This document shows positions 2,739-40,290 of a DNA stretch of 64,000 nt, in pieces (position 1 is the stretch's first letter; the number at the start of each line of letters is the position of its first letter). The stretch comes from Catajapyx aquilonaris (lineage: Eukaryota), in the NCBI GenBank assembly GCA_000934665.2, contig JYFJ02001616.1, positions 1 to 64,000 on the forward strand. Direction: 5' to 3'. Under the pieces are notes generated by a model, which was not told the DNA's origin, ran no database searches, and was given only the letters and a program-made list of their open reading frames with translations. The translations under genes were made by a program, and so were the position numbers.

Positions 2739-4698
2739 TCTATTTCTGTTATTATCGCAATTTTATTTCCATTTTAAAATTTTGAATGATCGTTAATATG
2801 AAACTCTGTAAAATCTGTATCATACTATGGTATCCTTTTCATTCAAAACACTGTACGATGAACTTCACTCGCTCTTACTCTCCGATACACATGTTTTTCG
2901 GTCACTCTATTGTTTGGCCTTTATTCTTTCACATGGTTTTCCACACTCATGACCTATCTAACTAGAGCACCTTGTGCTAACTACGACATAGCACATAGTC
3001 AGCACATGATTTGCAGTGTACGCTCTTAGTACAATAATTTACTGTCGGCAGAGCCACCATTATAATACCAAGGAATACGAGGACTTAAAGTGCTTTCTAG
3101 ACGATATCTTCACGTGGATTTTATGACAGATTAGTGAAGCTGAAAGGACTTTGAGGATAAAACCAAGGAGAAACTGAAGTCGCATGCCTGTGAAAATGAA
3201 TCTGTTCCGCAAATATTTTCCGTACTGAACAGGCTTCCGTTATGTGCGACAGATATAGAAATCCTCCAATGGTACTACTTGTACAAAAGGTTTCTATTGT
3301 AGACAATCATATCTCGTGTTCGGTTTCAGAGAAGAATGGCCACCTGACGGAGTTTTCCCTTTACATGAAGCTCCTTCATGTAGAAAAACTCCGCCAGGTG
3401 GCCATACTTGTACTTCTCCATTAATTTCCACCACTGCACTGTAGTCATTTTGGGTCGATACTTTGTCCTCTTTGTCCTGTCATTCAATCGGAAAATTATG
3501 AGATTAACGGCTCTTAATCAATAAGCAAATTAATAGCAGGCTAATAGTAGCAAGTAATTATAGCTTTTGTTGGTTACTTTACACAAATATAGTTTGATGA
3601 GGCCATTCGTTTTTACCATTAATATCAGTAGCTGTTGTTGAAAAGCCACTCTTTAGTGCAAGGGAAAAAATATTATGACGTCTACAACTGCCCGTAAATA
3701 TTTTACAACTACCAGTACAGCCTATAACATCGTTGCACAATGCACATGCAATGCGGGGTAAATAGTCCTACAACACTGCTCACGACTTCGCAAATCCTAG
3801 CAACCTGTTGTTCAACGGAAATCGGGGACATGGAAACCTCCCAAATCTTCCTCGGCGTCTCACGTAAATGCCATTGATCTTGATTGCCACAAAGAAAGTG
3901 GTTCTTCAGCTGGCAAAGAATAGACTGGGATATAAGGTGGAGACTGAGGAACAAGAATATACCCAGAAGTGGGACTATAAGTTCAATATACTTGATTCGC
4001 ATCTACTATATTATAGCTGCCTGCACCATTTGTATCCTGACAGCTGTCTTATATGACTGCTGCTTTGTCGATAGACAAATTGAACGACTTTTATCAGAGT
4101 GTACCTCCCCTCTTAGAAAGGTTAGAATTAAGAGTTATTGGAATATATATCTAGATTCAGCTTGACCTATCCTACGATTATTTTCCCCCTCCCCATGACC
4201 TCCATCTGACGACTTCAAACACGACCAAAGGGATTGAGTCCCCTCGCGTGCTAACAAATGGACTGCATTTTTTATGTCCCTACCCCATACCCCCCCCCNC
4301 CCCCCCCCCCCATCCCAAGCTTGGACAATATTTAACTTGTTGGGGAACTGCTGTTCTGCATGCGCACATGTGAAGTGGAGAGACAACCGCACTTGTTCGA
4401 TTCAGGTGATATTGACGTGCCTTTCGGACACTCTCACCGGAGGGAAATCGTTAGCCTTCACACCAAACCTACAAATTGGGGACCCAAATAATGCAGGCAG
4501 CGGAATAATATTGTTTTCAATGGGTTTTGGGATCAGTCGTGCGTGGGTTTGAGTGGGAGTATGCATTGGGGATTTTTCTTTTTCAACTCAGCTGTATGCA
4601 GAGTGTGCGAGTGCTAAATATTCTGTGACTTCAGTCTCCAACGTTGCTGATGGAAATATACAGGGTGGTTCCAAAATACTTGTTGGCACTAAACTATT

Positions 4699-6193: not shown

Positions 6194-6273
6194 AATATCT
6201 TATACTAATCTTATACTGTATATAGTGCCATCATGATGGCACTATATACAGTATAAGATTAGTATAAGATATT
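6194..6273. repeat. Perfect 80-bp spacerless palindrome
   Basis: AATATCTTATACTAATCTTATACTGTATATAGTGCCATCA followed directly by its exact reverse complement. Confidence 0.95.
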
Positions 6274-7470: not shown

Positions 7471-7523
7471 TACCTTTACCCAATATTGACCTACATTATG
7501 TAGGTCAATATTCGGTAACGGTA
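7471..7523. repeat. 53-bp imperfect palindrome (possible collapsed MITE)
   Basis: 26-bp arms with 2 mismatches and a 1-nt centre; TA at both ends. Confidence 0.75.
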
Positions 7524-10621: not shown

Positions 10622-10766
10622 GTACTTGGGGCTCAAATTGTTTTGGTCACTTTATCCTGGTCTTGAAGCAACCCTTCGCACAGACCCCACGGTGAGGAGG
10701 TGTGTGTGTGAAGGGTTGCTTCAAGACCAGGATAAAGTGGCCAAAACCATTTGAGCCCCCTAGTAC
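10622..10766. mobile_element. Palindromic MITE-like element, unclassified
   Basis: About 60-bp inverted arms (GGGGCTCAAAT...CACTTTATCCTGGTCTTGAAGCAACCCTTC) with a spacer of about 22 bp. Confidence 0.8.
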
Positions 10767-13221: not shown

Positions 13222-14426
13222 ATGGGTAGCAGCTGCTCCTCCGGCCAAGGCCATAAGGACAAGGACAGTGTGTCGATCAAGTCGGAAGGGTGAGTTTGTA
13301 GTGTGTGTTGTGGTGCAGGGTACTTATCATTTTCTGTATTTGGTAGCTCTCCGTGCTATCAGGGACCAAAGAAGGAGGGGAAGAAGCAGCAGCAGAATCA
13401 TGCCGGTGGGTCCACCGCAGCTGTTCAGGCGCAGGCCAATGCGCACGCGGGCTCCCAGGGAGGCAACCAGGCGGGGGCCACCAGGCCATCGGCGTCGCCC
13501 CCGGACCGTCGCAAGGAAGGACCTGTCACTAGACTCATCAAGACTTCTGGACCCTCTGTCGTTTCAGGTGAGTGCATAAACGGTTGTCGTTGTGATTTGT
13601 TTGCATAATTCCCTGACGTATGTGAGCAAAGTAGGCCTGACAAGCTGAAATAGAAAAATTAGAGTGGAGGAAATTGGATTGATAGCCTTGATTTGTTTGT
13701 ACATTGCTCGCCCTATCAAAATTATATGTCACATTGGACCTTGGCGTAAGGAACTTGAAAATGAGAAGTGCAGGTTTCATTTACTAAGAATGTTAAAGGT
13801 AAATTAAATTCAGAGTCATCAGTTCATCTGCCACAAATACGGTATATTATACTGAAATATGCCTAACAAGAAAAAAAAATTTGAAGGCAGGAAATAAATG
13901 CGAGCATTCACTAGTGTATATAGAGTGCCTGTAGTCCAAAGTTGAAAAATAATCTGTGCCCCATTCGCAGGAGGGAAAGGGTGACTGGGAGGGATGGTGG
14001 GGATGCAAGTGCAATGTCTCAAACTGTTCTTTTGTGTGTTCTCCTTATGGTTAGTCTAATGCAGTGGTTCCCAAACTATGGGCCGCGGCCCACTGGTGGG
14101 CCGCGAGGCTCCTCCAAGTGGGCCGCGAGCTTTATTTTTTATTTTTTAACTATGAAATAATGATCTTGCGAAATGAGGAGCAAGAGCACAGTACGTAAAA
14201 AAAATACATATATTGTGTAGCATGATTTTTGCAGCTCTCAATAAGGGAGGTGACTCTCACTCAAAAGATTGGGTCGAGTCTTTTTCGCCCAGCTGTGACA
14301 CTTGACAAATTCCCTCAAATACACACCCATTCAAATCTCCCACATTCACCTCTAGGCTCGCGTGACCTTGAACTCCCCCAAAAAATTACGCCTGCGGCGG
14401 GCTTTCTCTCTCTCTCTCTCTCTCTN

Positions 14427-14459
<33 letters not shown>

Positions 14460-17400
14460 AGGTGGGCCGCGAGATATTTTCCCTATCTAATGTGGGCCGC
14501 GAGCAAAAAAAGTTTGGGAATCACTGGTCTAATGCAAATCCCTCTTGAGACAAAGCGGAGGGCTCCTCAACTCTGTGTAAGATGAAAGGGGAGAAATCCT
14601 GGGCTTCTGCCTGTTCATTACCTGCATACATTACCAAAGCACCACTCCGAATCCCTGAATTCTCATAACAAAGTTTCACAGTGCAATGAATTATGTCACA
14701 TAAATCTTTAAACGAATTTGTAATAACTTTGCGCTCTACATCGTAATTGGTTGCAAGTGTGTGATACAAGTAGATGATATTGAACAAAAATTGCAGCAAT
14801 TAAAAATAAGCAATTAACAACATATGGGCAGAGGCTAAATGAGACTGCTAGTTTCATGCTTCTGATAAAAGCTCTTATTTTGCATGAGCTTAATTTAAGT
14901 AACACCCACTAAGAAATACAATCATGCATTGCTATGTCTGGAAAACCGTCTGTTTATGTAGGAGCAATCAGTGGAGGGAAGTCCATGATTTCAGTAGTAA
15001 CTCTGTGTGTGTGTGTGTGTGGGCTGGCTAAGCCCAAGTTTACTGCGGTCACTTTGTCTCGAGTTTAATGTGAGTACTAGGTGGCTCTCAAAAATAGGCC
15101 AGGGGTTTACCCTTAATTTCCTCACATAGTAAATAAAATCAATAAGAATTACAAGGAAAAAAGTAGACAGCCAAATGTTATAAAAATGTTAGCATATATT
15201 GGGATATAAAATTATTATTACTGTACATTATTAAATTACTTCATTACATTACAATAACTTATTAGAAACATTGTCAATGGGTTGTGGACTGACTTGTTTT
15301 TGAACTAAAAGTAAATACGTTGTTATATATTGCTAAGTAGGTCATCAAACAAAAAGGCACAGTACAGTGAAATAACTGCCTGGGAAAGGTTTCATTGTGT
15401 GCCTTAATTTGATGCAAATCCCCTTTCCCCTAGTGAAATCCTGGTCCTTCATCGTGCTGCCATCTCACCCTCAAGACTAGACTTTCATGGGCATGACTGA
15501 TCACTTTCAGGAGATTCCATGTCCCTGTCATCTCCCACCACGGCTACACAAAGCCCACGAGATTTGGAACGCCTGGGAGAATACCCTGTCCCCAGAGAGA
15601 TTTTACAGCTGCCAGAGAACCTGCAGCACCTCTTGGCTGGTAGAGTGGCTGCCGTGAAGCCTGTCACTAAAGATAAGAAAATCACAATCTACATTTGTGC
15701 TGCTGATTCTCAAGGTATGTCAGTGATTGATGTACAGTATATTGCATCTTACTAATAAGATATCTTCCCTAGATTGCAGGCTGGAAAAAGGCATCCTGCA
15801 CACTAAAGTATATCCTGAACTGAGGCGCCATTGCCTGGAACTGGGCTACGAGCTGCACATTGCTGACCTCCACTGGAAGACCGAGCTAGAGAAGAAGCAA
15901 GATCATGAATTTCCAGAACTGTGCTTGGCAGAACTGAAGCGTAAGTGAATATGTTCCTTTGGTGACTCCAAAATGTTCTGGGTGTGGGGCTCAGCAACAT
16001 TTGGTCAGGCAGCCATAATTAGTCCTCATAGCTCAACGGGAGAGCAACGGCCTGACTTCTTTTGACCCTGTCAACAAAGAGGGGCTATCAAAAGAATGAG
16101 GGTTGGAGGTTCCAGGTTCAACTCCTGGTGAGGGCATTGGTGGCTTGTCCAAGTTGTCCTAAGCTTTATTTCACTACATTTGGGAGCACTTGAGCAACTG
16201 AGCTTGTGCTCATTTGTTCTGTGATAGTAAATCATGTTACATGTCGTTGGATTAGTAAAAGCAAGTTGGAAACTGGGATTGTGCTGATAATCTATTGTGG
16301 TTATAATATAGAGCAGCTTCAAACATTCCATGGTTTTGGTTTGCCATAAAAAATTTCAAGTTGCTCAGTAGCCATGAGTGGAAGATGGGAAGAGTAAAAC
16401 TGGAATGGGAGGGTGGGGTAGTAATGCAAAAGCATACCTCGCTGGACTGACAGGTCAAGTGGAGATGTCCTACGTGATACCGATGCTGTTCCTGAGCAAC
16501 TCGCTGGGTGCCCCTTTGCTGCCAAAGACAGTGGAGTGCCAAGATTTTGAGATGGCTGTGAAGAGCGCAGAGGGAAATGAGTCGAAGAACCTTCTGCAGG
16601 AGTGGTATGGTCTAGACTCTCACTCCCAGCCTCCATGCTACCGGCTGAAACCAATTGCTGCCCACATCCCAGATGTTCAGGCAGCTGATCCTGCCCTGAG
16701 GGACCACGCACTTGTTAAATGGGCTATAGTGGTAGATCGCATTTTAGCCTTGCTCTCCGCAGTTTTGCCGAAGGACCTCAGGGACACGTACCTCACCACT
16801 GTTGTTGAGCAGGTCAGTAGCACATCTGTATATGTTCTGTGCAGTTCCAAGTTGACACAGTTTCTTACTACCAGGAGGTGCACAACTCTGTGTTCATGAG
16901 CCGTGAGCTGGCCAAGAGATGTCTGTGGCTGTGCCGAGTGTTCACCCACATCCAGTCTCCAACAGAGGCTCAAGGGACAAAGGCAGAAATGGGCCCTGGA
17001 GCCCTAGAGCAGAAGCGTCGCCTCGAAGTCTTACAGAATGAGTTGAAGGTGAGTGTAAAAGGCTTTCACTCTCAGTACTATTATAGCAGGTGTGAAAACA
17101 TTTAATATTTAAAGGCTTAATATGAATAGACCTACTTCAGTTTCATACTATTAGTTTACATACTGTTGGATATCTCCTAAGTAATGTAATAAGTCTCACT
17201 CCTCTTAGCAGCATATTTAGTATAAGGAGAGCATGGTGAAGAATAACAGTGTGGTAAATTATTTGCAGAACTCAGTTTTGTTTGACAAAATAAAATGTTA
17301 TTAATTCTTGAACAGAAAATTATTACCACTGTGTGTTTAAGTTGAAAAATACAGGCATAATTATGCTTTGAAGGCCACCACAGAAAGCTACGCATGATTT

Positions 17401-24254: not shown

Positions 24255-25624
24255 CTACTTAAACCGCCGGTAGTCCAACTGCGCAGGGCGAGCCCATGCC
24301 GCCAAAACAAATGATTCAATCTCACATTCATTCTCTCCTCTGACTATGCGGAAGAGTCCATTCTCACCCCAGGATGTGCCCCATGAATTTGCTGCCAGCT
24401 AGAACAAAAAATTGTTATTTTTCCAGTGATCATGACTGTATTGTCAACAGAGGCATACCCAGTATTTTGTTGACAACATTTCTCCCCAGCCAAGGATCCG
24501 GACTGAATGGTATCCTGTCCTCTCACCATCCGTCAGCCCGGACTTTCTATATATTCCTCCATTGTACATAAAGAAGTCAGCACTGACTCGAACAGTTGCT
24601 GTAAGAATAATTTTATCAGTCTGGAATATATAGAGTATGATGTTGATGTGGTTGATTACCTTGGACTGGGCCATGAGTACGTATCTCATGCATGATGTCC
24701 TCGGGCTTGGATGACAGGCGATATGCTGGCTGCATCCGAAAGAGCTCCCTACGATTGTCAGACAGACGACGGTTTCTACGTTGATTGGGGCAGGGCAACT
24801 TTTGCCTTGTGCTACCAGCAGCCCTTGGAGGCATTAGACAAGGGGGTAAGGAACCCCCATCTGAACTCTCATATGGGTAACAATCCTCTTCCACAACTCC
24901 AAAACGGCGCATATACATCCAAGCTCTGTCCAGGTAGCCTCCACTGCAACCTTGCTGTCCACGATTATTGCATGAGATTAGGTTCTGCACAGAGAGTGTA
25001 GGCTCTTCTCTTCCATTGGACTCGATTGCAAGTCGATCTCCTGTAGGGTATGTGCAGTTATAGCATATTAGGCTGCAAATTAACAGAAAAGTAGGCCTAT
25101 ACGACTTACCTGAGACATCTGCGGTTGAGAATGCCCAGGACGCACCACACCACCCTTGGTCTCTTGGTGGATGGATCTGAGCAGGCCACTTTTCACGGGC
25201 ATCAAAATGAGTTGGCAGTGAGTTAGGATCATAAGCCTGCTTGATGGGCCTCAGGTTCCTAACAGTTTGGTCAGGTTTCAGTGTTCCTAAGCGCTGGACC
25301 AAGCCATGCTTTAACTTGTGACCCCAGAAGAAGGAGTAGTTGGAGGCACTCCATGGGTACAGATGGCCAGAATTGATAGCATGCACGAGTTGGGGCTCAA
25401 TAATGCATACGTCTGTTTCGCACAAGAATTCCATTTTGGTAGGTTGCAGAGGAGACATCCCGCATTTGCTGCCAATGAACACTCATTAGTACATGGCCAG
25501 TGCTGCTCAGCATGAACCCTGCAGAACATTTTCTCCATTCCACCCAGTACTTACCATTCATTGCAATTATTTTTGATAACTTCTCCAAACTTGTAATGTT
25601 GTCCTCCATGGGTGCAGCCTTCTG

Positions 25625-29794: not shown

Positions 29795-31062
29795 TTTTGT
29801 CCATGGGAATTCATTGCTATTCCCATGCCTTGGGTCACTTGCAACTTATAATGACCATTATTCATTTTGTCTGAATTTTGGTTTTGACCTTGGGGCAGTC
29901 AAAAACTAAATTCTCCGATGCGCAGGAAAAAGAGCACAAGTCAAAAAATTATTTTTTGTATTTTTTTTAACTCATGCGCTTTTCCCCCAGAATCCGAGCA
30001 TTCACCTCGATTAATCCACCTCATTGATAAGACTCGGATTCGGGGGGAAAAGCGCGTAAGTAAAAATAAATAAATTATTATATATATTTTTTACTTGTGC
30101 TCTTTTTTCCGCGCCTCCGAGAATTCCTCGAAATATAGGGGCTCATTTCGAATAAAATGTTTCTCGGCCATCTCTGATTCTGGTGAAAGAAATTCCAGCT
30201 ATATATAGACTACGCACCTATAGATGTCATAACGCTGCATATCAAGTTTCAGCCATATTTAACAATACCATATGGGGAGGGAAAAAAATCGCGAAATATT
30301 GGAAAATGCTGAAAATGAGGCCTTTTTGGAGATATTTTCGGTGAAGTGATCATAACCCAATAAACAATGTATATGAATCAAATAAAAAGACGAGAAGAAG
30401 TCGCCTATGGAATTACCTTTCCTCAAAAATGTAGCCAGAAAAACGTGTGTGAGATTTCAGTGTCACATGTCCAAGAATTTGAGTCACATTAATTATATTA
30501 ATTGGTCGCAGGAGTTGTGACCCACACAAGACACAATGTATGGTAAGCCTGGTTCATGCATGGTTCGCTAGAAAATATTAGAGATGTTTTGCATATATAC
30601 CTACGCATTAGATTTAATTTTCAAGGACCCAGATTCTTGGACATGACTGTCATCAATGGAATGCCACACACACTTTTCTAATAGCTGCATTTTCAAGGAA
30701 AACAAATTCCTTATGCCCATTCTCCTCTTCTTCCTCCTTTATTATTTTGATATGCAGTTAAATTATGTTTATTGAGTTTTGAACACTCCCGCCAAGACCT
30801 CCACTAACCAAAACAATCTCCAAAAAAGTGTTAAGTTTAATTTTCCGCCTCTTTCAAAATTTCTGGAGCGCCCCCTCCTCACGGTTTTCATTTTGGTCCA
30901 CTTGATTCGGAATATGATCCCTATATTTCGAGGAATTTGATTTTCTGACTGCCCCAAAGTAAAAAACAAATTCCAGACAAAATGAATGGTCATTATTATG
31001 GGATACGAGTGACCTAAAGTACAGTACATGGAAATAATGATGAATTCCCATGCACAAAAATT
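29795..31062. mobile_element. Old, degenerate foldback (large inverted-repeat) element
   Basis: 29795-29912 plus 30126-30155 match the reverse complement of about 30900-31062; inner arms match around CATGTCCAAGAAT (30466) / ATTCTTGGACATG (30633). Confidence 0.7.
29913..30121. mobile_element. Palindromic MITE with a 4-bp AATT TSD, nested in a foldback element
   Basis: Ends CTC...GAG; arms contain AAAAAGAGCACAAG/CTTGTGCTCTTTTT and GAATCCGAG/CTCGGATTC; AATT on both sides. The uninterrupted site is visible in the opposite foldback arm. Confidence 0.75.
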
Positions 31063-35668: not shown

Positions 35669-35953
35669 ATAATAATAATAATTCATACCCTGTTATCAGC
35701 CTATCAGCTCTTTAGGGGAGAAATTTGTTTTGCCTGGAACTCTTTGCTTTTCATTTTACTGTGCTCTTTGGGATAGGATAGGGACGGAAGGAAGCGGCTG
35801 TAGCCTATTAATTACGGAAGCAACTCCGGAATTTTCCTGGAAGGACCGTGGGAAATCACAGAAAAACAGTCAGAGTTGCCAGCCCCGGGATTTGATCCCA
35901 GGACCTCCCGATTAGCAGTCGGACACCATATCCCCTACTCCAACCTGCTTCGG
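35669..35953 (-). mobile_element. tRNA-derived SINE, family B
   Basis: Perfect 17-bp TSD TAACCAAGGGTTACTTA (35652-35668, 35954-35970), A/B-box head, central CAGCCGCTTCCTTCCG motif, (ATT)n tail. Confidence 0.9.
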
Positions 35954-38900
35954 TAACCAAGGGTTACTTATAGCCAGGGCTCTTGTATCCAGAGTCAACT
36001 GTACATGCAATTAATATTGGGATTTACTGATTATATGTTTCCGTTTCGTCTAATATACTATAGGTACTCGTACAGTACTACTGATGAATATGTTCTGATG
36101 GATGCTCCAGTAATGAATGGTAATAAATGCCTGTTACTGCTTGTGTGACTGTCACTACATTAGATAGAATGGCAAGTTAGGACACTACTAGGAAGAAAGG
36201 AATCACTGCAGTGTTGCAGCCTAGCTCTCCGAGTTGCCAGTTTTGGCTTTTATTGGTGCTGTCATGGATATTGGCAGAGACTTACCCACGCATCTTTTGG
36301 AAGAATTTAATAGGCTAAGCTACAGTTGCCATATTTCTTGAAATAGAAACGGAAGGATTCAAAATTGATCTTGCGATATATTATCACAATAATTTTTAGT
36401 GGCAGTTGCACCTAATAATATTATATGAAAATATGAAACTCACTGTCAGTTTATAAACATCTGTTCTGAGAATAGTGAGATTCTTGACTTGGAATTCGAA
36501 GAATTTGCAATTTTTTGCATTTAAAATGGCCACAGAAGTTGCTTGAAACCTGCCAGAATTTTTACTATTTTCATGACAATTCATGACAATGGCAGATCAT
36601 GGCCAATTTGTTGCATTGCGCATTGTTCACTAAAACTGATAAGTTATTTAATAAAAATAAATGCTCGCTCAATGTTGGTTGCACAATGCAGAAACTATGC
36701 CTTAAATGGAGTATTACAATGAGGAATCATACATATTCATATTTTCATTTCATTTAAATTATTGTTAGTGAACTGGATGCGACTCACAAAATTGGCCACT
36801 CTCATAAAAATTGAAATTGAAATTCCGACAGGTTCTAGCGCCTTATGTGGCCATTTTAAATGCAAATAATTGCTAATTCGCAACTGTCGATCCCATATTT
36901 TTAACAGCTCAAAGAAGGGATACTGAGAAACTGAGTTTCTCATTTTCATCTATTAGTGAACAAATCCCACTGAAAATTAGCCTGATAGGCCTACACCACA
37001 AAATCAATCCTGTGAAGCATCCTTTCAAGCTGCATCCTGCTCATTTCTAGTAACCTCCATTGGTCTGGTAGGTGAACCACATTCACTTGTAGATTTCAAT
37101 TTCCTGGTGCCAGGTCGTGTAGGAAAATTAACCCACAACAAACAAAAGCCATAAAATTAATGACGCCAGTAAATTTCCACGTGAACGTCTTCAGGGATTA
37201 ATTTTTTTAAAAAATCAGAGGTTAGTTTTTCGTCAGACTGCTAAATGTACAGTACGTTCTCATGAGTGCGATGGACTCATTTATGAAAAATTGCACTCTC
37301 GTTTTTGTATTTACTATTTACATATAGGCGTTTTTACTAGTCAGGGTTCTTCCACATGTTTTCTCTGAGTCAATTATTATACGCATATATCTTTTTTTAC
37401 AGATTGATTGGAGATCACTTGATCATCAGGCAACCAACCTGAGGGTGGCCTTCTCTGCGATTTCATCATAAGCCGGAGGTCAGTAACCACCTGCCTTGTT
37501 AACAAGCTCATGAGAATTATTCCTGGAATTCTCTCGAAATCACTGCATCAGCTACCTTTAAGCTAACCAAATGCTACAAAAAAATGTCATGTGCAGGTAA
37601 ACTGCATTTATGAAGATGGTCAGTAAATCCCACACATCCATTACGTGGGAGTTATTGACCACCCGGCATATAGCGCTCATCTGATGAACGCGGAATCGAC
37701 AAGCAGGAATGACAGAATTGAACAACTTGCATCAACATGTTTGCTTCAATGAAGTGATGGCAAATAGACACTGATTAACCGGTCGACATGCATTTCTGTC
37801 ACGTAAGGCCTTCGTCGACAACGTAGACTCCCGACATTTCCGTGTTTGGTTAGCGCAATCGACTTCTATCTCTATTATTCCCTCCACATCCACACCTTCC
37901 CACCCCAACTACCAGCATGTATAACCAGGGCACTCACCCTGTACATAATCATAATCGTGGGAATATTTTGATAGAAAATTGATTCTTGTTGGTCGACCTC
38001 TCCGGCGTTCGTGTAATTTGGTAGCAGTTCTCTATATGAATGTCACGATCGGTTGAGCGTTCCCATGCACTCATGATAATATGGTCAGCAGTAAAACAGC
38101 TCTGTGTTTTAGAAATTGCCATCCGAATTCGATTAGTTTGGCAGAGCATGTAGGCTGAGGGCATCCGAAGGGTCGATCCAAGAGGTGACCGGATTTTGTA
38201 CCGAAACTGGCCCACGGTCATTACCGACTAACAGGCTCAGTCTATTCCAGTAATTCTTCTTTGTGCTTACAGCGACGCTTACAGATACTGTAAGTTGGAC
38301 CGGTATTCAAATGTGGCTGGTTTATGTCGCCACGGGATCTGACATAGGTGTCAGAGGCGGTTTTCTGCGGTCTTTTTAGCGCGACATCACCGCCCTCTTT
38401 ATCACTATTGTTGGAGTCCTGATTTATGGAGCCAATATTTTATAAATAATTAGCACATGGCGAATCAAGAGCGTGACACAGAACGCGTTACGGTGTCTTT
38501 TTTTGTATAAATTTAAATGGGTCGTTAGCAATTGGTTGTAAGCCCTAAGGACTGGATTGCGTAATATCAGGTCAAGTAGGAAGATGTAACATTTCTACTG
38601 ATGACGTCATGGTTATAAAATGTGTTTGCATTTTATGCATATGCTGTTAGCAGCTGATCGTGAATTGTACATATTTACCGAATGGCAAGCGATTTATATA
38701 ACCGTACAGTAAATGAGAGAGCCTATAATTTTCATATATCTATCACGAATAACCGTAATTTTTATGCATATTAATTACTATGAATATCTCCAGGGTGATT
38801 CACTAATGGGTTAAAATATATAATTTTCTCTGAAATATTCGTGAATGATTCATGAAGCATAAAGCATACCCTGCAAAAAAAAAAAATGCGAAGGTGTTCT

Positions 38901-39947
38901 CATTCTATTACGACCAGGTATAAAGATATTTATGATATAGTTTTATATTGCCCGGAAATGGCCCGTAAAAATTCCCGTGCGAGTAATACTGTGGTGGTGA
39001 TTAATGAACAGGATTTTATGCAGCTGAACGTCATGTTTTGATGAATTAACCTGTACAGTAGGAAGGAATCCTTTTTGCATGCTATCAGATCTACTAATTT
39101 GCACACTGTATAACTGAAACCTACACGGGCGCTTCCTTTGAAAAACGGAGAATAGAGATGGTCATCTGAGGGACGTATTCTAAAGAACAATGGTGTGGAT
39201 GGTGTAAACACGAGCATTTTTATCAGTTTTATGGGCAAGTAACATTATATCATCTCTCAGGGTTTGCATCATGAGGCGATGCCGATGGTCCCCATCTTGG
39301 GAGACTGCTTCTAAAGATAATAAAGTCAAAATGTATTTTGAATTTAGAATATGGAATTAGCAGCCTTTTAAAAGTTTAGTCCTTATCATAATAAGCTTTC
39401 TATATACAATTACTAGCTCATATGTATGCGTGTAGACATGTAAGAAAATATATTATATGGTGTTATAAGCCGTACCGGTATGTCGTGCGGTATTCTTGAC
39501 GACAGCATTCGTACTAAGCATTGGCTATTTGTGGTCGTGATATTAAAAATAAATAAAAGGTCGCACGTGTAAGGTTTACGGCCAGCGGGGTGTATTGGAT
39601 GCATATTTTAGGTATACTTTTGGTTTTGTTTCAAGAACTTATTTAGCTTTTTTCTTATGAAAGGGCATTAGGAACGGTGAGAGCTGAAAATGCACAACAG
39701 TTATCCGTAGTGTTTCAGGGTGTACTTAACCTGAATAATGGGAAAAGTGATAATTGCATCTAAGTAAGTTCAAATAGGAATGCATATTTAAAATCAATAG
39801 GGGCTCTTAATCCAAAGTCGGTCCGTGGTGTCTTTGCATTACGGTTCAAATTATGTAGCGTATTTTTCGGACATGTCTCAAAATGGCATGAGAGGGACTT
39901 GATACTAGCTTGTACTGTACATCTTGCAAAACAATGGTTCTGCATTA

Positions 39948-40128
39948 AGGCCCATTCACACAGGCCGTCGACGGTTTTGGTTTTGGTTTTGGTTTTGGTT
40001 TTGGACCAATCAGAGTGGGCCCTCACGGTAACCATGACGCGTTGTTTACGTGAGGGCCCGTTCTGATTGGTCCGCGGCGTCGACGAGACCAGAAACCAAA
40101 ACCGTCGACGGCCTGTGTGAATGGGCCT
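39948..40128. mobile_element. PIF/Harbinger (Tourist-like) MITE
   Basis: About 36-bp TIR AGGCCCATTCACACAGGCCGTCGACGGTTTTGGTTT, 3-bp TSD TTA, second internal inverted repeat. Confidence 0.9.
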
Positions 40129-40290
40129 TTACTATATTATAAAAAGTAAATGAATAATAGTTGGTTTGTGGCATTGTAACATACAGGTACTGATTTAAAC
40201 TTTCCCAAGACACGTGAAAAACTGCTTATGTGGGAGTATACAATAATTTATACGGCAACTTTTTTTCGGAGCGGGATTCATAATTGTGAA

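What the first reader, a model, noticed from the sequence alone, without database searches (positions are those of the whole stretch)
16022..16136. Intronic tRNA mimic whose anticodon loop is replaced by a long hairpin with tandem G.A pairs
Seen: a complete cloverleaf frame, with acceptor 16022-16028/16129-16135 (7 of 7 pairs), D stem 4 of 4, T stem 5 of 5 with a TTCAACT loop, and canonical A and B boxes. In place of a 7-nt anticodon loop the arm continues: CGGCC/GGTTG, an internal UGAC/UGAG quartet (tandem sheared G.A), a perfect 9-bp helix TTCTTTTGA/TCAAAAGAA, then a CCCT/GGGG mini-hairpin. Established: metazoan intron-containing tRNAs are Tyr-GTA, Ile-TAT, Leu-CAA and Arg-TCT, with a purine at position 37. 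Canonical splicing here would give anticodon GAC with T37, which fits none of them. UGAN/NGAN quartets are the core of SECIS and K-turn-like motifs bound by L7Ae-family proteins. The insert contains TTTT (16060-16063), a Pol III terminator, and no other T4 follows until about 16334. Inference: it may be excised from the sense-strand host intron by RNase P and RNase Z (mascRNA-like), acting as a non-decoding tRNA scaffold or as a cis-acting cleavage signal on the NACHT pre-mRNA. Unlike the SINE heads in this window, it keeps a paired acceptor stem and has no TSD or tail.
Basis: partly seen in the sequence, partly recalled or inferred. Interest (0 to 1): 0.82.

Follow-up and report, generated by a model that had tools for sequence, protein, structure and literature searches.

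The report
Broken tRNA copy in an intron
A tRNA-shaped stretch inside an intron of an invertebrate NACHT-WD gene is most likely a decayed tRNA gene copy whose anticodon loop is split by a small hairpin insert, which is an ordinary kind of genomic relic rather than a new RNA machine.

Summary
Window 16022-16136 (+) is the only tRNA-model match in the window (Rfam tRNA, 41.9 bits against a cut-off of 29). It has intact acceptor, D and T arms, and 50 letters lie where a 7-letter anticodon loop belongs. These include a perfect 9-bp inverted repeat. It lies in the sense strand of a 513-nt GT-AG intron of an expressed NWD-like gene.

The functional reading is not supported. No removal of one block gives a standard animal anticodon loop. 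The canonical pre-tRNA shape costs 10.7 kcal/mol. No SECIS, K-turn or snoRNA model matches.

In contigs of the same organism, 14 other records per run match parts of the element at 80-95% and none at 95% or more. One carries 76 other letters in place of the 55 of this copy, and one has no insert. The hairpin is therefore not a shared trait.

The window is full of foldback repeats. My best reading (0.6) is a decayed, Arg-like tRNA gene copy with a palindromic insert. A processed tRNA-like RNA remains possible but untested.

The parts
15773..15940 (+). Host exon of the NWD-like (NACHT + WD) gene, upstream of the intron
   Evidence: The reading frame is open. A contig of run X5 joins the preceding exon to 15771/15773 (loose end; letters checked). 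tblastn of P0001 and P0002 aligns to 15772-15942 and 15772-15927. The GT donor lies at 15941-42.
15941..16453 (+). Host intron, 513 nt, GT..AG, phase 1
   Evidence: Donor GTAAGT starts at 15941. Acceptor AG lies at 16452-53 and the frame continues from 16454. Homologues align colinearly on both sides, and none of their residues fall in the intron.
16454..16809 (+). Next host exon (the end given is the least extent)
   Evidence: The frame is open. P0002 aligns to 16462-16809 and P0001 to 16516-16884. An X5 contig covers 16470-16647.
16022..16136 (+). tRNA-like element: a whole cloverleaf frame with 50 letters between the anticodon-stem strands
   Evidence: Rfam RF00005 scores 41.9 bits and covers model positions 1-71. 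The minimum-energy fold is the cloverleaf, and it persists in 320 nt of intron context.
16022..16028 (+). Acceptor stem, 5' strand
   Evidence: It pairs 7 of 7 with 16129-16135.
16129..16136 (+). Acceptor stem, 3' strand, plus discriminator A (16136); no encoded CCA
16031..16045 (+). D arm (stem 4 bp, loop AACGGGA); the A-box region is 16029-16039
   Evidence: The A-box consensus is recalled and comes from no call.
16047..16051 (+). Anticodon stem, 5' strand (Rfam register)
   Evidence: it pairs with 16102-16106, with one A.G mismatch and two G.T pairs.
16102..16106 (+). Anticodon stem, 3' strand
16057..16096 (+). 40-nt palindromic insert: perfect 9-bp terminal inverted repeat (16057-65/16088-96) around a small CCC/GGG hairpin
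   Evidence: It is listed among the perfect 9-bp inverted repeats of the window.
16053..16055 (+). TGA, left copy of a 3-letter direct repeat beside the palindrome; in the fold, G16054 and A16055 lie opposite A16099 and G16098
16097..16099 (+). TGA, right copy of the direct repeat
16112..16128 (+). T arm (stem 5 bp, loop TTCAACT); the B-box region is 16115-16125
   Evidence: The 21 letters 16109-16129 occur exactly in at least 120 prokaryote-type tRNA loci, mostly tRNA-Arg.
15953..16015 (+). Left arm of a weak inverted repeat that flanks the element (possible old foldback or leader-trailer pairing)
   Evidence: It is paired in the 320-nt fold. The local inverted alignment scores 13, reached by 1 of 1000 shuffles. 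However, 37 of 1697 random placements in this window also reach it.
16138..16198 (+). Right arm of the same weak inverted repeat

Best explanation
The element is a decayed copy of a class I tRNA gene. The body looks Arg-like, but the isotype is not settled. It lies by chance in the sense strand of a short intron of an NWD-like gene.

Its anticodon loop no longer exists as such. Fifty letters stand between the stem strands, and 40 of them form a palindrome with perfect 9-bp ends. I read this palindrome as a secondary insertion or foldback event, of the kind that is very common in this genome.

The tandem G.A pairs are a by-product of the TGA letters that flank the palindrome on both sides. The element has no dedicated function. 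If RNase P or RNase Z, or Pol III, act on it, this is incidental.

Shown: the tRNA homology, the intron position, the non-canonical loop, the heterogeneous related copies, and the abundance of palindromes. Inferred: the insertion origin of the hairpin and the lack of function.
For: 1. **tRNA homology is real but the score is modest.** Rfam gives 41.9 bits. ARAGORN with default settings calls nothing. With introns allowed it forces an implausible Leu(gag) with a 25-nt intron at 33/34.

2. **The loop is not canonical.** The Rfam register gives C32, T33, G-A-C and T37 before the insert. By my enumeration on the letters, no removal of one block leaves a standard animal loop.

3. **The anticodon stem is the only damaged stem.** It has an A.G mismatch and two G.T pairs.

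4. **The canonical pre-tRNA shape is disfavoured.** That shape is the C32-G pair, a 3-nt bulge at the 3' cut and an anticodon-intron helix, as described in passages of PMC6614914. It needs C16052-G16098 with 16099-16101 bulged. This costs -34.5 against -45.2 kcal/mol and leaves the 5' cut inside a helix.

5. **Related copies are heterogeneous.** Contigs of organism A were laid at 80% likeness or more. Runs X1, X2 and X4 are one sample, which may be the source of this DNA.
   - There are 15, 15 and 13 records laid per run. One of each is the locus itself.
   - Of the other 14, 14 and 12 records, 0 are 95% alike or more; 8, 8 and 7 are 90-95% alike; 6, 6 and 5 are under 90%.
   - One contig per run has both halves, with 76 other letters between 16048 and 16104 instead of 55.
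   - One contig matches 16020-16057 and then runs on unlike.
   - One abuts a D arm and a 7-letter loop directly on 16102, so it has no insert.
   - Flanks after 16136-16144 differ between contigs.

6. **The window is rich in foldback repeats.** There are 56 perfect 9-bp inverted repeats with loops of 3-30, against a mean of 10 and a maximum of 21 in 30 Markov-1 simulations. Complex palindromic elements of 53-217 nt are present.

7. **No SECIS, K-turn or snoRNA family matches.** At E<=10 the only rows besides tRNA are chance-level: Plastid-ycf2, mir-891 and a 12-bit snoR71.

8. **The body is Arg-like.**
   - Of the 120 metagenome loci that share the exact 21-letter T-arm stretch, ARAGORN called a tRNA over the stretch in 100 and in none of the other 20.
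   - Of those 100, 80 are tRNA-Arg: 77 ACG, 2 TCG and 1 TCT. One further call with an undetermined 4-letter anticodon (aacg) is not counted.
   - The single Arg(TCT), L028, matches the selection-free 5' part best, 26.5 of 32.
Against: - The acceptor, D and T stems are all intact: 16 of 16 pairs, with one T.G. This is more than I would expect of an old neutral relic that differs by 8-15% from every related copy. It fits either a young copy or selection for shape.
- Two or three related copies also carry foreign sequence in the same arm. One of them diverges exactly after position 37. This pattern resembles real intron-bearing tRNA families, whose exons agree while their introns differ (fly tRNA-Tyr genes listed in PMC4536317).
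- The TGA/TGA repeat does not make a clean target-site duplication. The left copy is one letter away from the palindrome. Removing the insert plus one copy leaves 6 letters, not 7.
- No second copy of the insert or of its 9-letter ends was found that would prove it mobile.
- I had no orthologous intron and no RNA reads over the intron, so conservation and expression remain untested.
Confidence: 0.6

Rival explanations
1. It is a non-decoding tRNA-like RNA. RNase P and RNase Z cut the cloverleaf out of the host intron, or out of a Pol III transcript. This gives a ~115-nt RNA with a long arm that serves as a scaffold, or the cuts act on the host pre-mRNA.
For: The acceptor, D and T arms are intact while only the anticodon arm is altered. 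As I recall, these intact arms are the parts that RNase P and RNase Z read. The cloverleaf persists in 320 nt of intron context. The element is in the sense strand of an expressed, spliced gene. The A-box and B-box regions are intact (the consensus is recalled).
Against: The hairpin is not shared by the related copies. No Rfam family other than tRNA matches. In the fold the flanks pair into a leader-trailer duplex next to the acceptor stem, and the effect of that duplex on the cuts is unknown. Intronic tRNA look-alikes tested in human cells gave no processed product from Pol II introns (PMC7722341, section 7). There is no conservation or RNA evidence.
Confidence: 0.14
2. It is a working intron-bearing tRNA gene of a lineage-specific family. 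Pol III transcribes it and the tRNA splicing endonuclease removes about 43 nt. The excised piece may persist as a circular tricRNA-like molecule.
For: Related copies share the two 'exons' but carry different or no sequence between them, and one diverges right after position 37. Fly tRNA-Tyr genes do the same. C16052 and G16098 could form the conserved C-G proximal pair, with 6 letters from C32 to the exon end (rule from PMC6614914; letters). A T4 inside an intron is tolerated in a fly tRNA-Tyr gene. The body resembles tRNA-Arg, and a TCT triplet lies in the 9-bp helix, paired to the insert as anticodons are in pre-tRNAs.
Against: The canonical cut gives GAC followed by T at position 37. The TCT triplet is 4 letters out of register. 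The required 3-nt bulge and helix are absent from the minimum-energy fold, and forcing them costs 10.7 kcal/mol. None of the 14 related contigs per run is 95% alike or more, unlike a homogenised gene family. There is no T4 within about 200 nt downstream.
Confidence: 0.06
3. It is an intronic splicing element of the nimtRNA kind. The cloverleaf within the pre-mRNA binds splicing-associated proteins and aids removal of the 513-nt intron, without being cut out.
For: Published precedent: intronic tRNA look-alikes promote splicing in a cloverleaf-dependent, position-dependent way (PMC7722341, abstract). Here the cloverleaf is intact, in the sense strand, and 81 nt from the 5' splice site.
Against: The precedent concerns mitochondrial-derived copies in human and mouse. 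Nothing here shows an effect on splicing, and no conservation data exist. The donor is already a good GTAAGT.
Confidence: 0.06
4. The tRNA-like core is cargo, or the centre, of a larger old foldback (MITE-like) element spanning about 15953-16198. It spread as part of that element.
For: The flanks 15953-16015 and 16138-16198 are inverted repeats of each other, with score 13 reached by 1 of 1000 shuffles, and they pair in the fold. Related contigs share about 10 letters upstream (from 16012) and 8 downstream (to 16144) of the tRNA frame. Foldback elements abound in the window.
Against: 37 of 1697 random placements in this window (2.2%) reach the same score. Related contigs do not share the outer arms, since their loose ends differ after 16144. 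No target-site duplication was seen.
Confidence: 0.1

Closest known systems
tRNA pseudogenes and tRNA look-alikes scattered in nuclear genomes (e.g. PMC4189335; seen as a search listing and the start of the abstract only)
   Same: It is a tRNA-model match with a damaged anticodon arm, has no standard anticodon loop, has dispersed and diverged relatives, and sits in an intron.
   Different: It keeps all three other stems intact, and it carries a 40-nt palindrome exactly in the anticodon loop.
nimtRNAs, intronic tRNA look-alikes that act as splicing enhancers (PMC7722341; abstract and section 7 read)
   Same: It is an intact cloverleaf in the sense strand of an intron of a protein-coding gene. 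The same question arises of whether it is processed or acts in cis.
   Different: nimtRNAs derive from mitochondrial tRNAs and have normal-length anticodon arms. This element is of nuclear or bacterial-type class I shape and has a 50-letter loop region. No splicing effect is shown here.
Metazoan intron-bearing tRNA genes and their circular introns, tricRNAs (PMC4536317 and PMC6614914; passages read)
   Same: A long structured insert lies 3' of the anticodon region. Paralogues share exons but not the insert. A C-G proximal pair is possible. Part of the loop region is paired to the insert.
   Different: The anticodon and position 37 are non-canonical. The 3-nt bulge at the 3' cut is missing. The isotype is not one of the known intron-bearing ones. 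No near-identical gene copies exist.
mascRNA and menRNA, tRNA-like RNAs cut from long Pol II transcripts by RNase P and RNase Z (PMC8457004 and PMC11693755; search listing and abstract starts only)
   Same: It is tRNA-shaped, non-decoding, and embedded in a Pol II transcript. Leader-trailer pairing lies beside the acceptor stem.
   Different: mascRNA lies at the 3' end of a lncRNA, is small (58 nt according to an abstract) and is conserved. This element is intronic and 115 nt long, its conservation is unknown, and only the general tRNA model matches it.
tRNA-derived SINEs (recalled; from no call)
   Same: It is a tRNA-related sequence with A and B box regions, and it has dispersed relatives.
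   Different: There are only about 14 partial look-alike contigs per run. There is no shared body, no tail and no target-site duplication. The 3' acceptor strand is kept.
Small palindromic insertion elements or foldback MITEs that split tRNA genes (MITEs recalled; earlier scan notes on prokaryotes)
   Same: A hairpin with perfect terminal inverted repeats sits in an anticodon loop. The genome is rich in palindromic repeats.
   Different: At 40 nt it is very short. The target-site duplication is unclear. No second copy was found. The earlier notes concern bacteria and phages, not animals.

Membership tests
Standard decoding tRNA gene | Cloverleaf that reaches the curated tRNA model score | tested here: met
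   RF00005 scores 41.9 bits against a gathering score of 29, covering model positions 1-71.
Standard decoding tRNA gene | 7-letter anticodon loop with T33 and a purine at 37, if need be after removing an intron at 37/38 | tested here: not met
   Fifty letters lie between the stem strands. The canonical cut leaves C-T-GAC-T, so position 37 is T and the anticodon is GAC. ARAGORN with default settings finds no gene.
Standard decoding tRNA gene | Near-identical sister genes in the same genome | tested here: not met
   Of the other contigs, 0 of 14 (X1), 0 of 14 (X2) and 0 of 12 (X4) are 95% alike or more. All three runs are one sample, and contigs can drop rare variants.
Metazoan intron-bearing tRNA / tricRNA gene | C32-G proximal base pair, with 6 letters from C32 to the end of exon 1 | tested here: met
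   C16052 and G16098 can pair, and 16052-16057 is 6 letters. The rule is from PMC6614914.
Metazoan intron-bearing tRNA / tricRNA gene | 3-nt bulge at the intron/3' exon cut, plus an anticodon-intron helix in that register | tested here: not met
   The minimum-energy fold pairs 16100-16101 into the stem. Forcing the bulge gives -34.5 against -45.2 kcal/mol, and no helix follows the proximal pair.
   The body resembles tRNA-Arg, with L028 Arg(TCT) the best of 100. A TCT triplet exists at 16058-60, but it lies 4 letters out of register.
mascRNA/menRNA-like | Match to a dedicated RNA family model; position at the 3' end of a long non-coding RNA | tested here: not met
   Only the general tRNA model matches at E<=10. 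The element is inside an intron of a coding gene.
mascRNA/menRNA-like | Cleavage by RNase P and RNase Z, and CCA addition | not testable with these tools
   No RNA reads over the intron were available.
tRNA-derived SINE | High copy number, a shared tRNA-unrelated body, a tail and a target-site duplication | tested here: not met
   There are 14, 14 and 12 partial look-alike contigs per run, and their flanks differ after 16136-16144. No direct repeat of 5 letters or more abuts the element, and there is no A-tail.
K-turn / SECIS-type motif | Tandem sheared G.A pairs beside an asymmetric 3-nt bulge (K-turn), or the SECIS quartet with its apical features; match to such a family | tested here: not met
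   The loop is symmetric, 3x3. No SECIS or credible C/D snoRNA match appears at E<=10; the only snoRNA row scores 12.2 bits against a cut-off of 40, and it lies elsewhere. The definitions of the motifs are recalled.
Foldback / MITE-like insertion (the 40-nt palindrome) | Terminal inverted repeats | tested here: met
   There are 9 perfect pairs at the very ends, 16057-65/16088-96.
Foldback / MITE-like insertion (the 40-nt palindrome) | Target-site duplication, and further copies elsewhere | tested here: inconclusive
   TGA stands on both sides, but the left copy is one letter off, and removal leaves a 6-letter loop. The 9-letter ends occur as a pair nowhere else in the window.

The most novel reading that the evidence does not exclude
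This animal has a small family of tRNA-shaped genes whose anticodon arm is a free 'cargo' site. At least two or three members carry different long inserts there. The intact acceptor, T and D arms let RNase P and RNase Z, or the tRNA splicing enzymes, release stable non-decoding RNAs of about 115-136 nt, or circular inserts. The copy in the NWD-like intron is one expressed member.
Probability: 0.1. Interest if true: 0.6.

Novelty: new member of a known kind. Interest (0 to 1): 0.2.

Why it matters
If the ordinary reading is right, it matters little. It is one more tRNA relic in an intron, and it shows how a palindromic insert flanked by short repeats can imitate a designed RNA motif such as tandem G.A pairs.

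It would matter only if the family with variable anticodon-arm inserts proved to be expressed and conserved. That would add an invertebrate case to the few known non-decoding tRNA-shaped RNAs (mascRNA, nimtRNAs, tricRNA hosts).

Tried and rejected
**Searches that gave nothing or little**
- Whole-genome search: no genome is held for this window.
- Earlier scan notes by place and by sequence: nothing.
- Sequencing runs: no RNA holder is listed.
- Run X5 behaves as RNA, because one contig joins two exons. Its two contigs cover only 15771-15829 and 16470-16647. The intron and the element have no cover in X5.
- No contig other than the locus's own covers 16058-16101, the insert, in X1, X2 or X4. 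The extra depth in the 5' bins is fully accounted for by two contigs, by my arithmetic on table 2. This is a part without cover and I use it as no evidence.
- Second copy in the window: blastn with word size 7 found none. The 9-letter ends do not recur as a pair.
- First protein search at near lengths: no hit.

**Metagenome scan**
- The scan with the 21-letter T-arm stretch gave only prokaryote-type tRNAs and 3' halves, and nothing from this animal.
- It showed that this stretch is generic. Some of the 3'-half matches may therefore be ordinary tRNA genes.

**Readings rejected**
- ARAGORN with introns allowed gave Leu(gag), with a 25-nt intron at 33/34 and a long variable arm. I rejected it as forced.
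- A clean target-site-duplication model for the palindrome: rejected as it stands, because it leaves a 6-letter loop.
- Removing one block to get a standard loop: I enumerated the options by hand on the letters. They gave UGA, GGA, GAA, or GAC followed by G37, all with the block at non-canonical places, or GAC followed by T37 at the canonical place. None is convincing.

**Isotype**
- L028 Arg(TCT) is the best match, but it is a single sequence out of a set chosen for sharing the T arm. I take it as suggestive only.

**Outer inverted repeat**
- It is significant against shuffles, but it lies only in the 2.2% tail of this palindrome-rich window.
Full report
**Observation**

- Acceptor stem: 16022-28 pairs with 16129-35, 7 of 7 pairs, one of them T.G.
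- D stem: 4 of 4.
- T stem: 5 of 5, with loop TTCAACT.
- A perfect 9-bp helix: 16057-65 with 16088-96.
- TTTT at 16060-63, and no further T4 until 16334-37.

Rfam's tRNA model matches 16022-16136 (+) over all 71 model positions, with a 46-letter insertion in the anticodon loop. It scores 41.9 bits against a gathering score of 29. This is the only tRNA match in the 64-kb window even at E<=1.

The minimum-energy fold is the cloverleaf with a long anticodon arm (-45.2 kcal/mol, z -3.06). The arm alone has z -3.18. The cloverleaf persists when 320 nt of intron are folded. ARAGORN with default settings calls nothing.

**Setting**

The host is a gene on the + strand with a NACHT domain, an NWD1-type winged helix and a beta-propeller.
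- Named relatives are fish NWD2 at only about 30-32% identity. Two unnamed proteins reach 37-40%.
- A neighbouring peptidase C1 gene is 41-49% identical to springtail, water-flea, insect and nematode proteins.
- The animal is therefore an invertebrate without close named kin in these searches, not a vertebrate.

The intron structure is as follows.
- The intron runs 15941-16453: GTAAGT donor, AG acceptor, phase 1, 513 nt.
- Homologues align colinearly on both sides and place no residues in the intron.
- A contig of run X5 joins the preceding exon to 15771/15773, so the gene is transcribed and spliced.
- The element starts 81 nt after the 5' splice site and lies in the sense strand.

**Can it be a working tRNA?**

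In Rfam's register the anticodon stem is 16047-51/16102-06, with an A.G mismatch and two G.T pairs. The next letters are C32, T33, G-A-C and T37, followed by the insert.

A cut at the canonical 37/38 site gives GAC followed by a pyrimidine at position 37. Enumerating every single-block removal gives no standard animal loop.

Passages of PMC6614914 give the regularities of fly intron-bearing pre-tRNAs:
- a C-G proximal pair;
- 6 letters from C32 to the exon end;
- an invariant 3-nt bulge at the 3' cut;
- a partly paired anticodon-intron helix.

Here C16052-G16098 could form the proximal pair. The bulge and helix are absent from the minimum-energy fold, and forcing them costs 10.7 kcal/mol (-34.5 against -45.2).

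ARAGORN with introns allowed gives a forced Leu(gag) with an intron at 33/34, which I reject.

The T4 in the insert is not decisive, because a fly tRNA-Tyr intron printed in PMC4536317 also holds T4.

**Relatives in the same organism**

No genome is held, so I laid contigs of public runs of the same organism on 15700-16900 at 80% likeness or more. X1, X2 and X4 are one sample and may be the source of the window, so they are not independent.

| Run | Records laid | Locus itself | Others | Others >=95% alike | 90-95% | Under 90% |
|---|---|---|---|---|---|---|
| X1 | 15 | 1 | 14 | 0 | 8 | 6 |
| X2 | 15 | 1 | 14 | 0 | 8 | 6 |
| X4 | 13 | 1 | 12 | 0 | 7 | 5 |

In X1, the depth table shows that exactly two other contigs touch the 5' half. 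The rest touch only the 3' half, 16102/16104/16108 to 16136-16144.

Three contigs are informative.
- One contig per run has both halves (16012-16048 and 16104-16144), with 76 other letters between them instead of 55.
- One matches 16020-16057 and then runs on with unlike letters.
- One joins a D arm and a 7-letter loop (TGTTACA) directly to 16102. It has no insert, and its loop is also non-standard.

Flanks beyond 16136-16144 differ between contigs. The element therefore has a small, heterogeneous set of relatives. It is not a high-copy SINE with a shared body, and it is not a homogenised gene family. The hairpin is private to this copy as far as these data go.

**What kind of tRNA?**

A scan of metagenome contigs with the 21 letters 16109-16129 returned at least 120 loci, all prokaryote-type.
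- ARAGORN calls a tRNA over the match in 100 of the 120 loci.
- These are 77 Arg(ACG), 12 Trp, 6 Lys, 2 Arg(TCG), 1 Arg(TCT), 1 Ile(TAT) and 1 undetermined.
- The other 20 are contig-end pieces, tRNA-Arg 3' halves next to unrelated DNA, five loci with a long insert after the anticodon, and two (L077, L117) with no recognisable tRNA remainder.

This has two consequences. First, the T-arm stretch is generic, so some 3'-half matches may be ordinary tRNA genes. Second, the body is Arg-like.

The single Arg(TCT), L028, matches the 5' part that was not selected for best (26.5 of 32). It agrees in acceptor, D stem, position 26, four of five anticodon-stem letters and the variable loop. A TCT triplet does lie at 16058-60, paired to the insert's 3' arm, but it is 4 letters out of register. 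This rests on one sequence and is only suggestive.

**The hairpin and the G.A pairs**

The 40 letters 16057-16096 have perfect 9-bp ends. TGA stands on both sides, at 16053-55 and 16097-99. Placed across a helix, these letters give the G.A/A.G juxtaposition by themselves.

The loop is symmetric (3x3), which is not the asymmetric bulge of a K-turn. A focused Rfam scan at E<=10 finds no SECIS or credible snoRNA match.

The window is unusually rich in palindromes.
- There are 56 perfect 9-bp inverted repeats with loops of 3-30, against a mean of 10 and a maximum of 21 in 30 Markov-1 simulations.
- At least eight complex foldback elements of 53-217 nt are present.

I therefore read the hairpin as a secondary palindromic insertion or foldback event. 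The weak points are these:
- the TGA repeat is one letter off;
- removing the insert plus one copy leaves 6 letters, not 7;
- no second copy of the insert was found.

**Flanks**

In the 320-nt fold the leader and trailer pair. The stretches 15953-16015 and 16138-16198 are inverted repeats, with score 13 reached by 1 of 1000 shuffles. However, 37 of 1697 random placements in this window reach that score, so this is a hint only. It could be an old foldback around the tRNA-like core.

**Verdict**

The most likely explanation (0.6) is a decayed, Arg-like tRNA gene copy with a palindromic insert in its anticodon loop, lying by chance in an intron.

Two facts speak against it:
- the other three stems are fully intact;
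- two or three relatives also carry foreign sequence in the same arm, and one breaks exactly after position 37, as real intron-bearing families do.

Rival readings therefore remain open:
- a processed non-decoding tRNA-like RNA (0.14);
- part of a larger foldback element (0.10);
- a true intron-bearing tRNA (0.06);
- a nimtRNA-like splicing element (0.06; PMC7722341).

In that paper, intronic tRNA look-alikes were not processed to tRNA-size RNAs from Pol II introns (section 7).

No conservation or RNA evidence could be obtained here. The mascRNA and tRNA-look-alike papers were seen only as search listings. Supplements of the papers were not opened.

Noticed in passing
window 3332-3409, 6194-6273, 7471-7523, 10622-10766, 29909-30125, 39947-40129, 42543-42720, 45845-46012: There are eight complex palindromic (foldback, MITE-like) elements of 53-217 nt. 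6194-6273 is 100% self-complementary. Several give sub-threshold hits to miRNA models, for example mir-147 at 10655-10732 (41.3 bits against a cut-off of 57) and MIR5048 at 39955-40121. 45845-46012 starts and ends with TA + CAGTG, which I recall as Tc1/mariner-like.
   Followed up: partly
window 15953-16015 and 16138-16198: A weak inverted repeat flanks the tRNA-like element and pairs in the fold. It is significant against shuffles (1 of 1000), but 2.2% of random placements in this window do as well.
   Followed up: yes
window 24616-25482 (-): A large open frame encodes a peptidase C1 / tubulointerstitial nephritis antigen-like protein. It is 41-49% identical to arthropod and nematode proteins.
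   Followed up: partly
window 35775-35954 and 48042-48222; 45334-45517 and 48330-48503: Dispersed direct repeats of about 180 nt, 79-84% identical, which are probably copies of interspersed repeats.
   Followed up: no
window 236, 4299, 14426, 17535, 41490: Five single N letters. Those at 14426 and 17535 lie next to long C-rich runs that read as proline runs in the open-frame lists.
   Followed up: no
L022, L043, L106, L108, L110 (metagenome contigs), about 110 nt upstream of the match to the match end: Five near-identical tRNA-like genes carry an insert of about 50 nt after a CTGTAG loop region, and ARAGORN's default mode does not call them. They look like archaeal-type intron-bearing tRNAs.
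   Followed up: no
L034, L073, L074, L081, L086, L091, L112 (metagenome contigs): These loci hold only the 3' half of tRNA-Arg(ACG), next to unrelated sequence.
   Followed up: no
L059 and L060 (one metagenome contig, Ga0137411_1304729): The contig holds two copies of the same tRNA-Arg-like gene. ARAGORN reads one with a 4-letter anticodon (aacg) and the other as normal Arg(acg).
   Followed up: no
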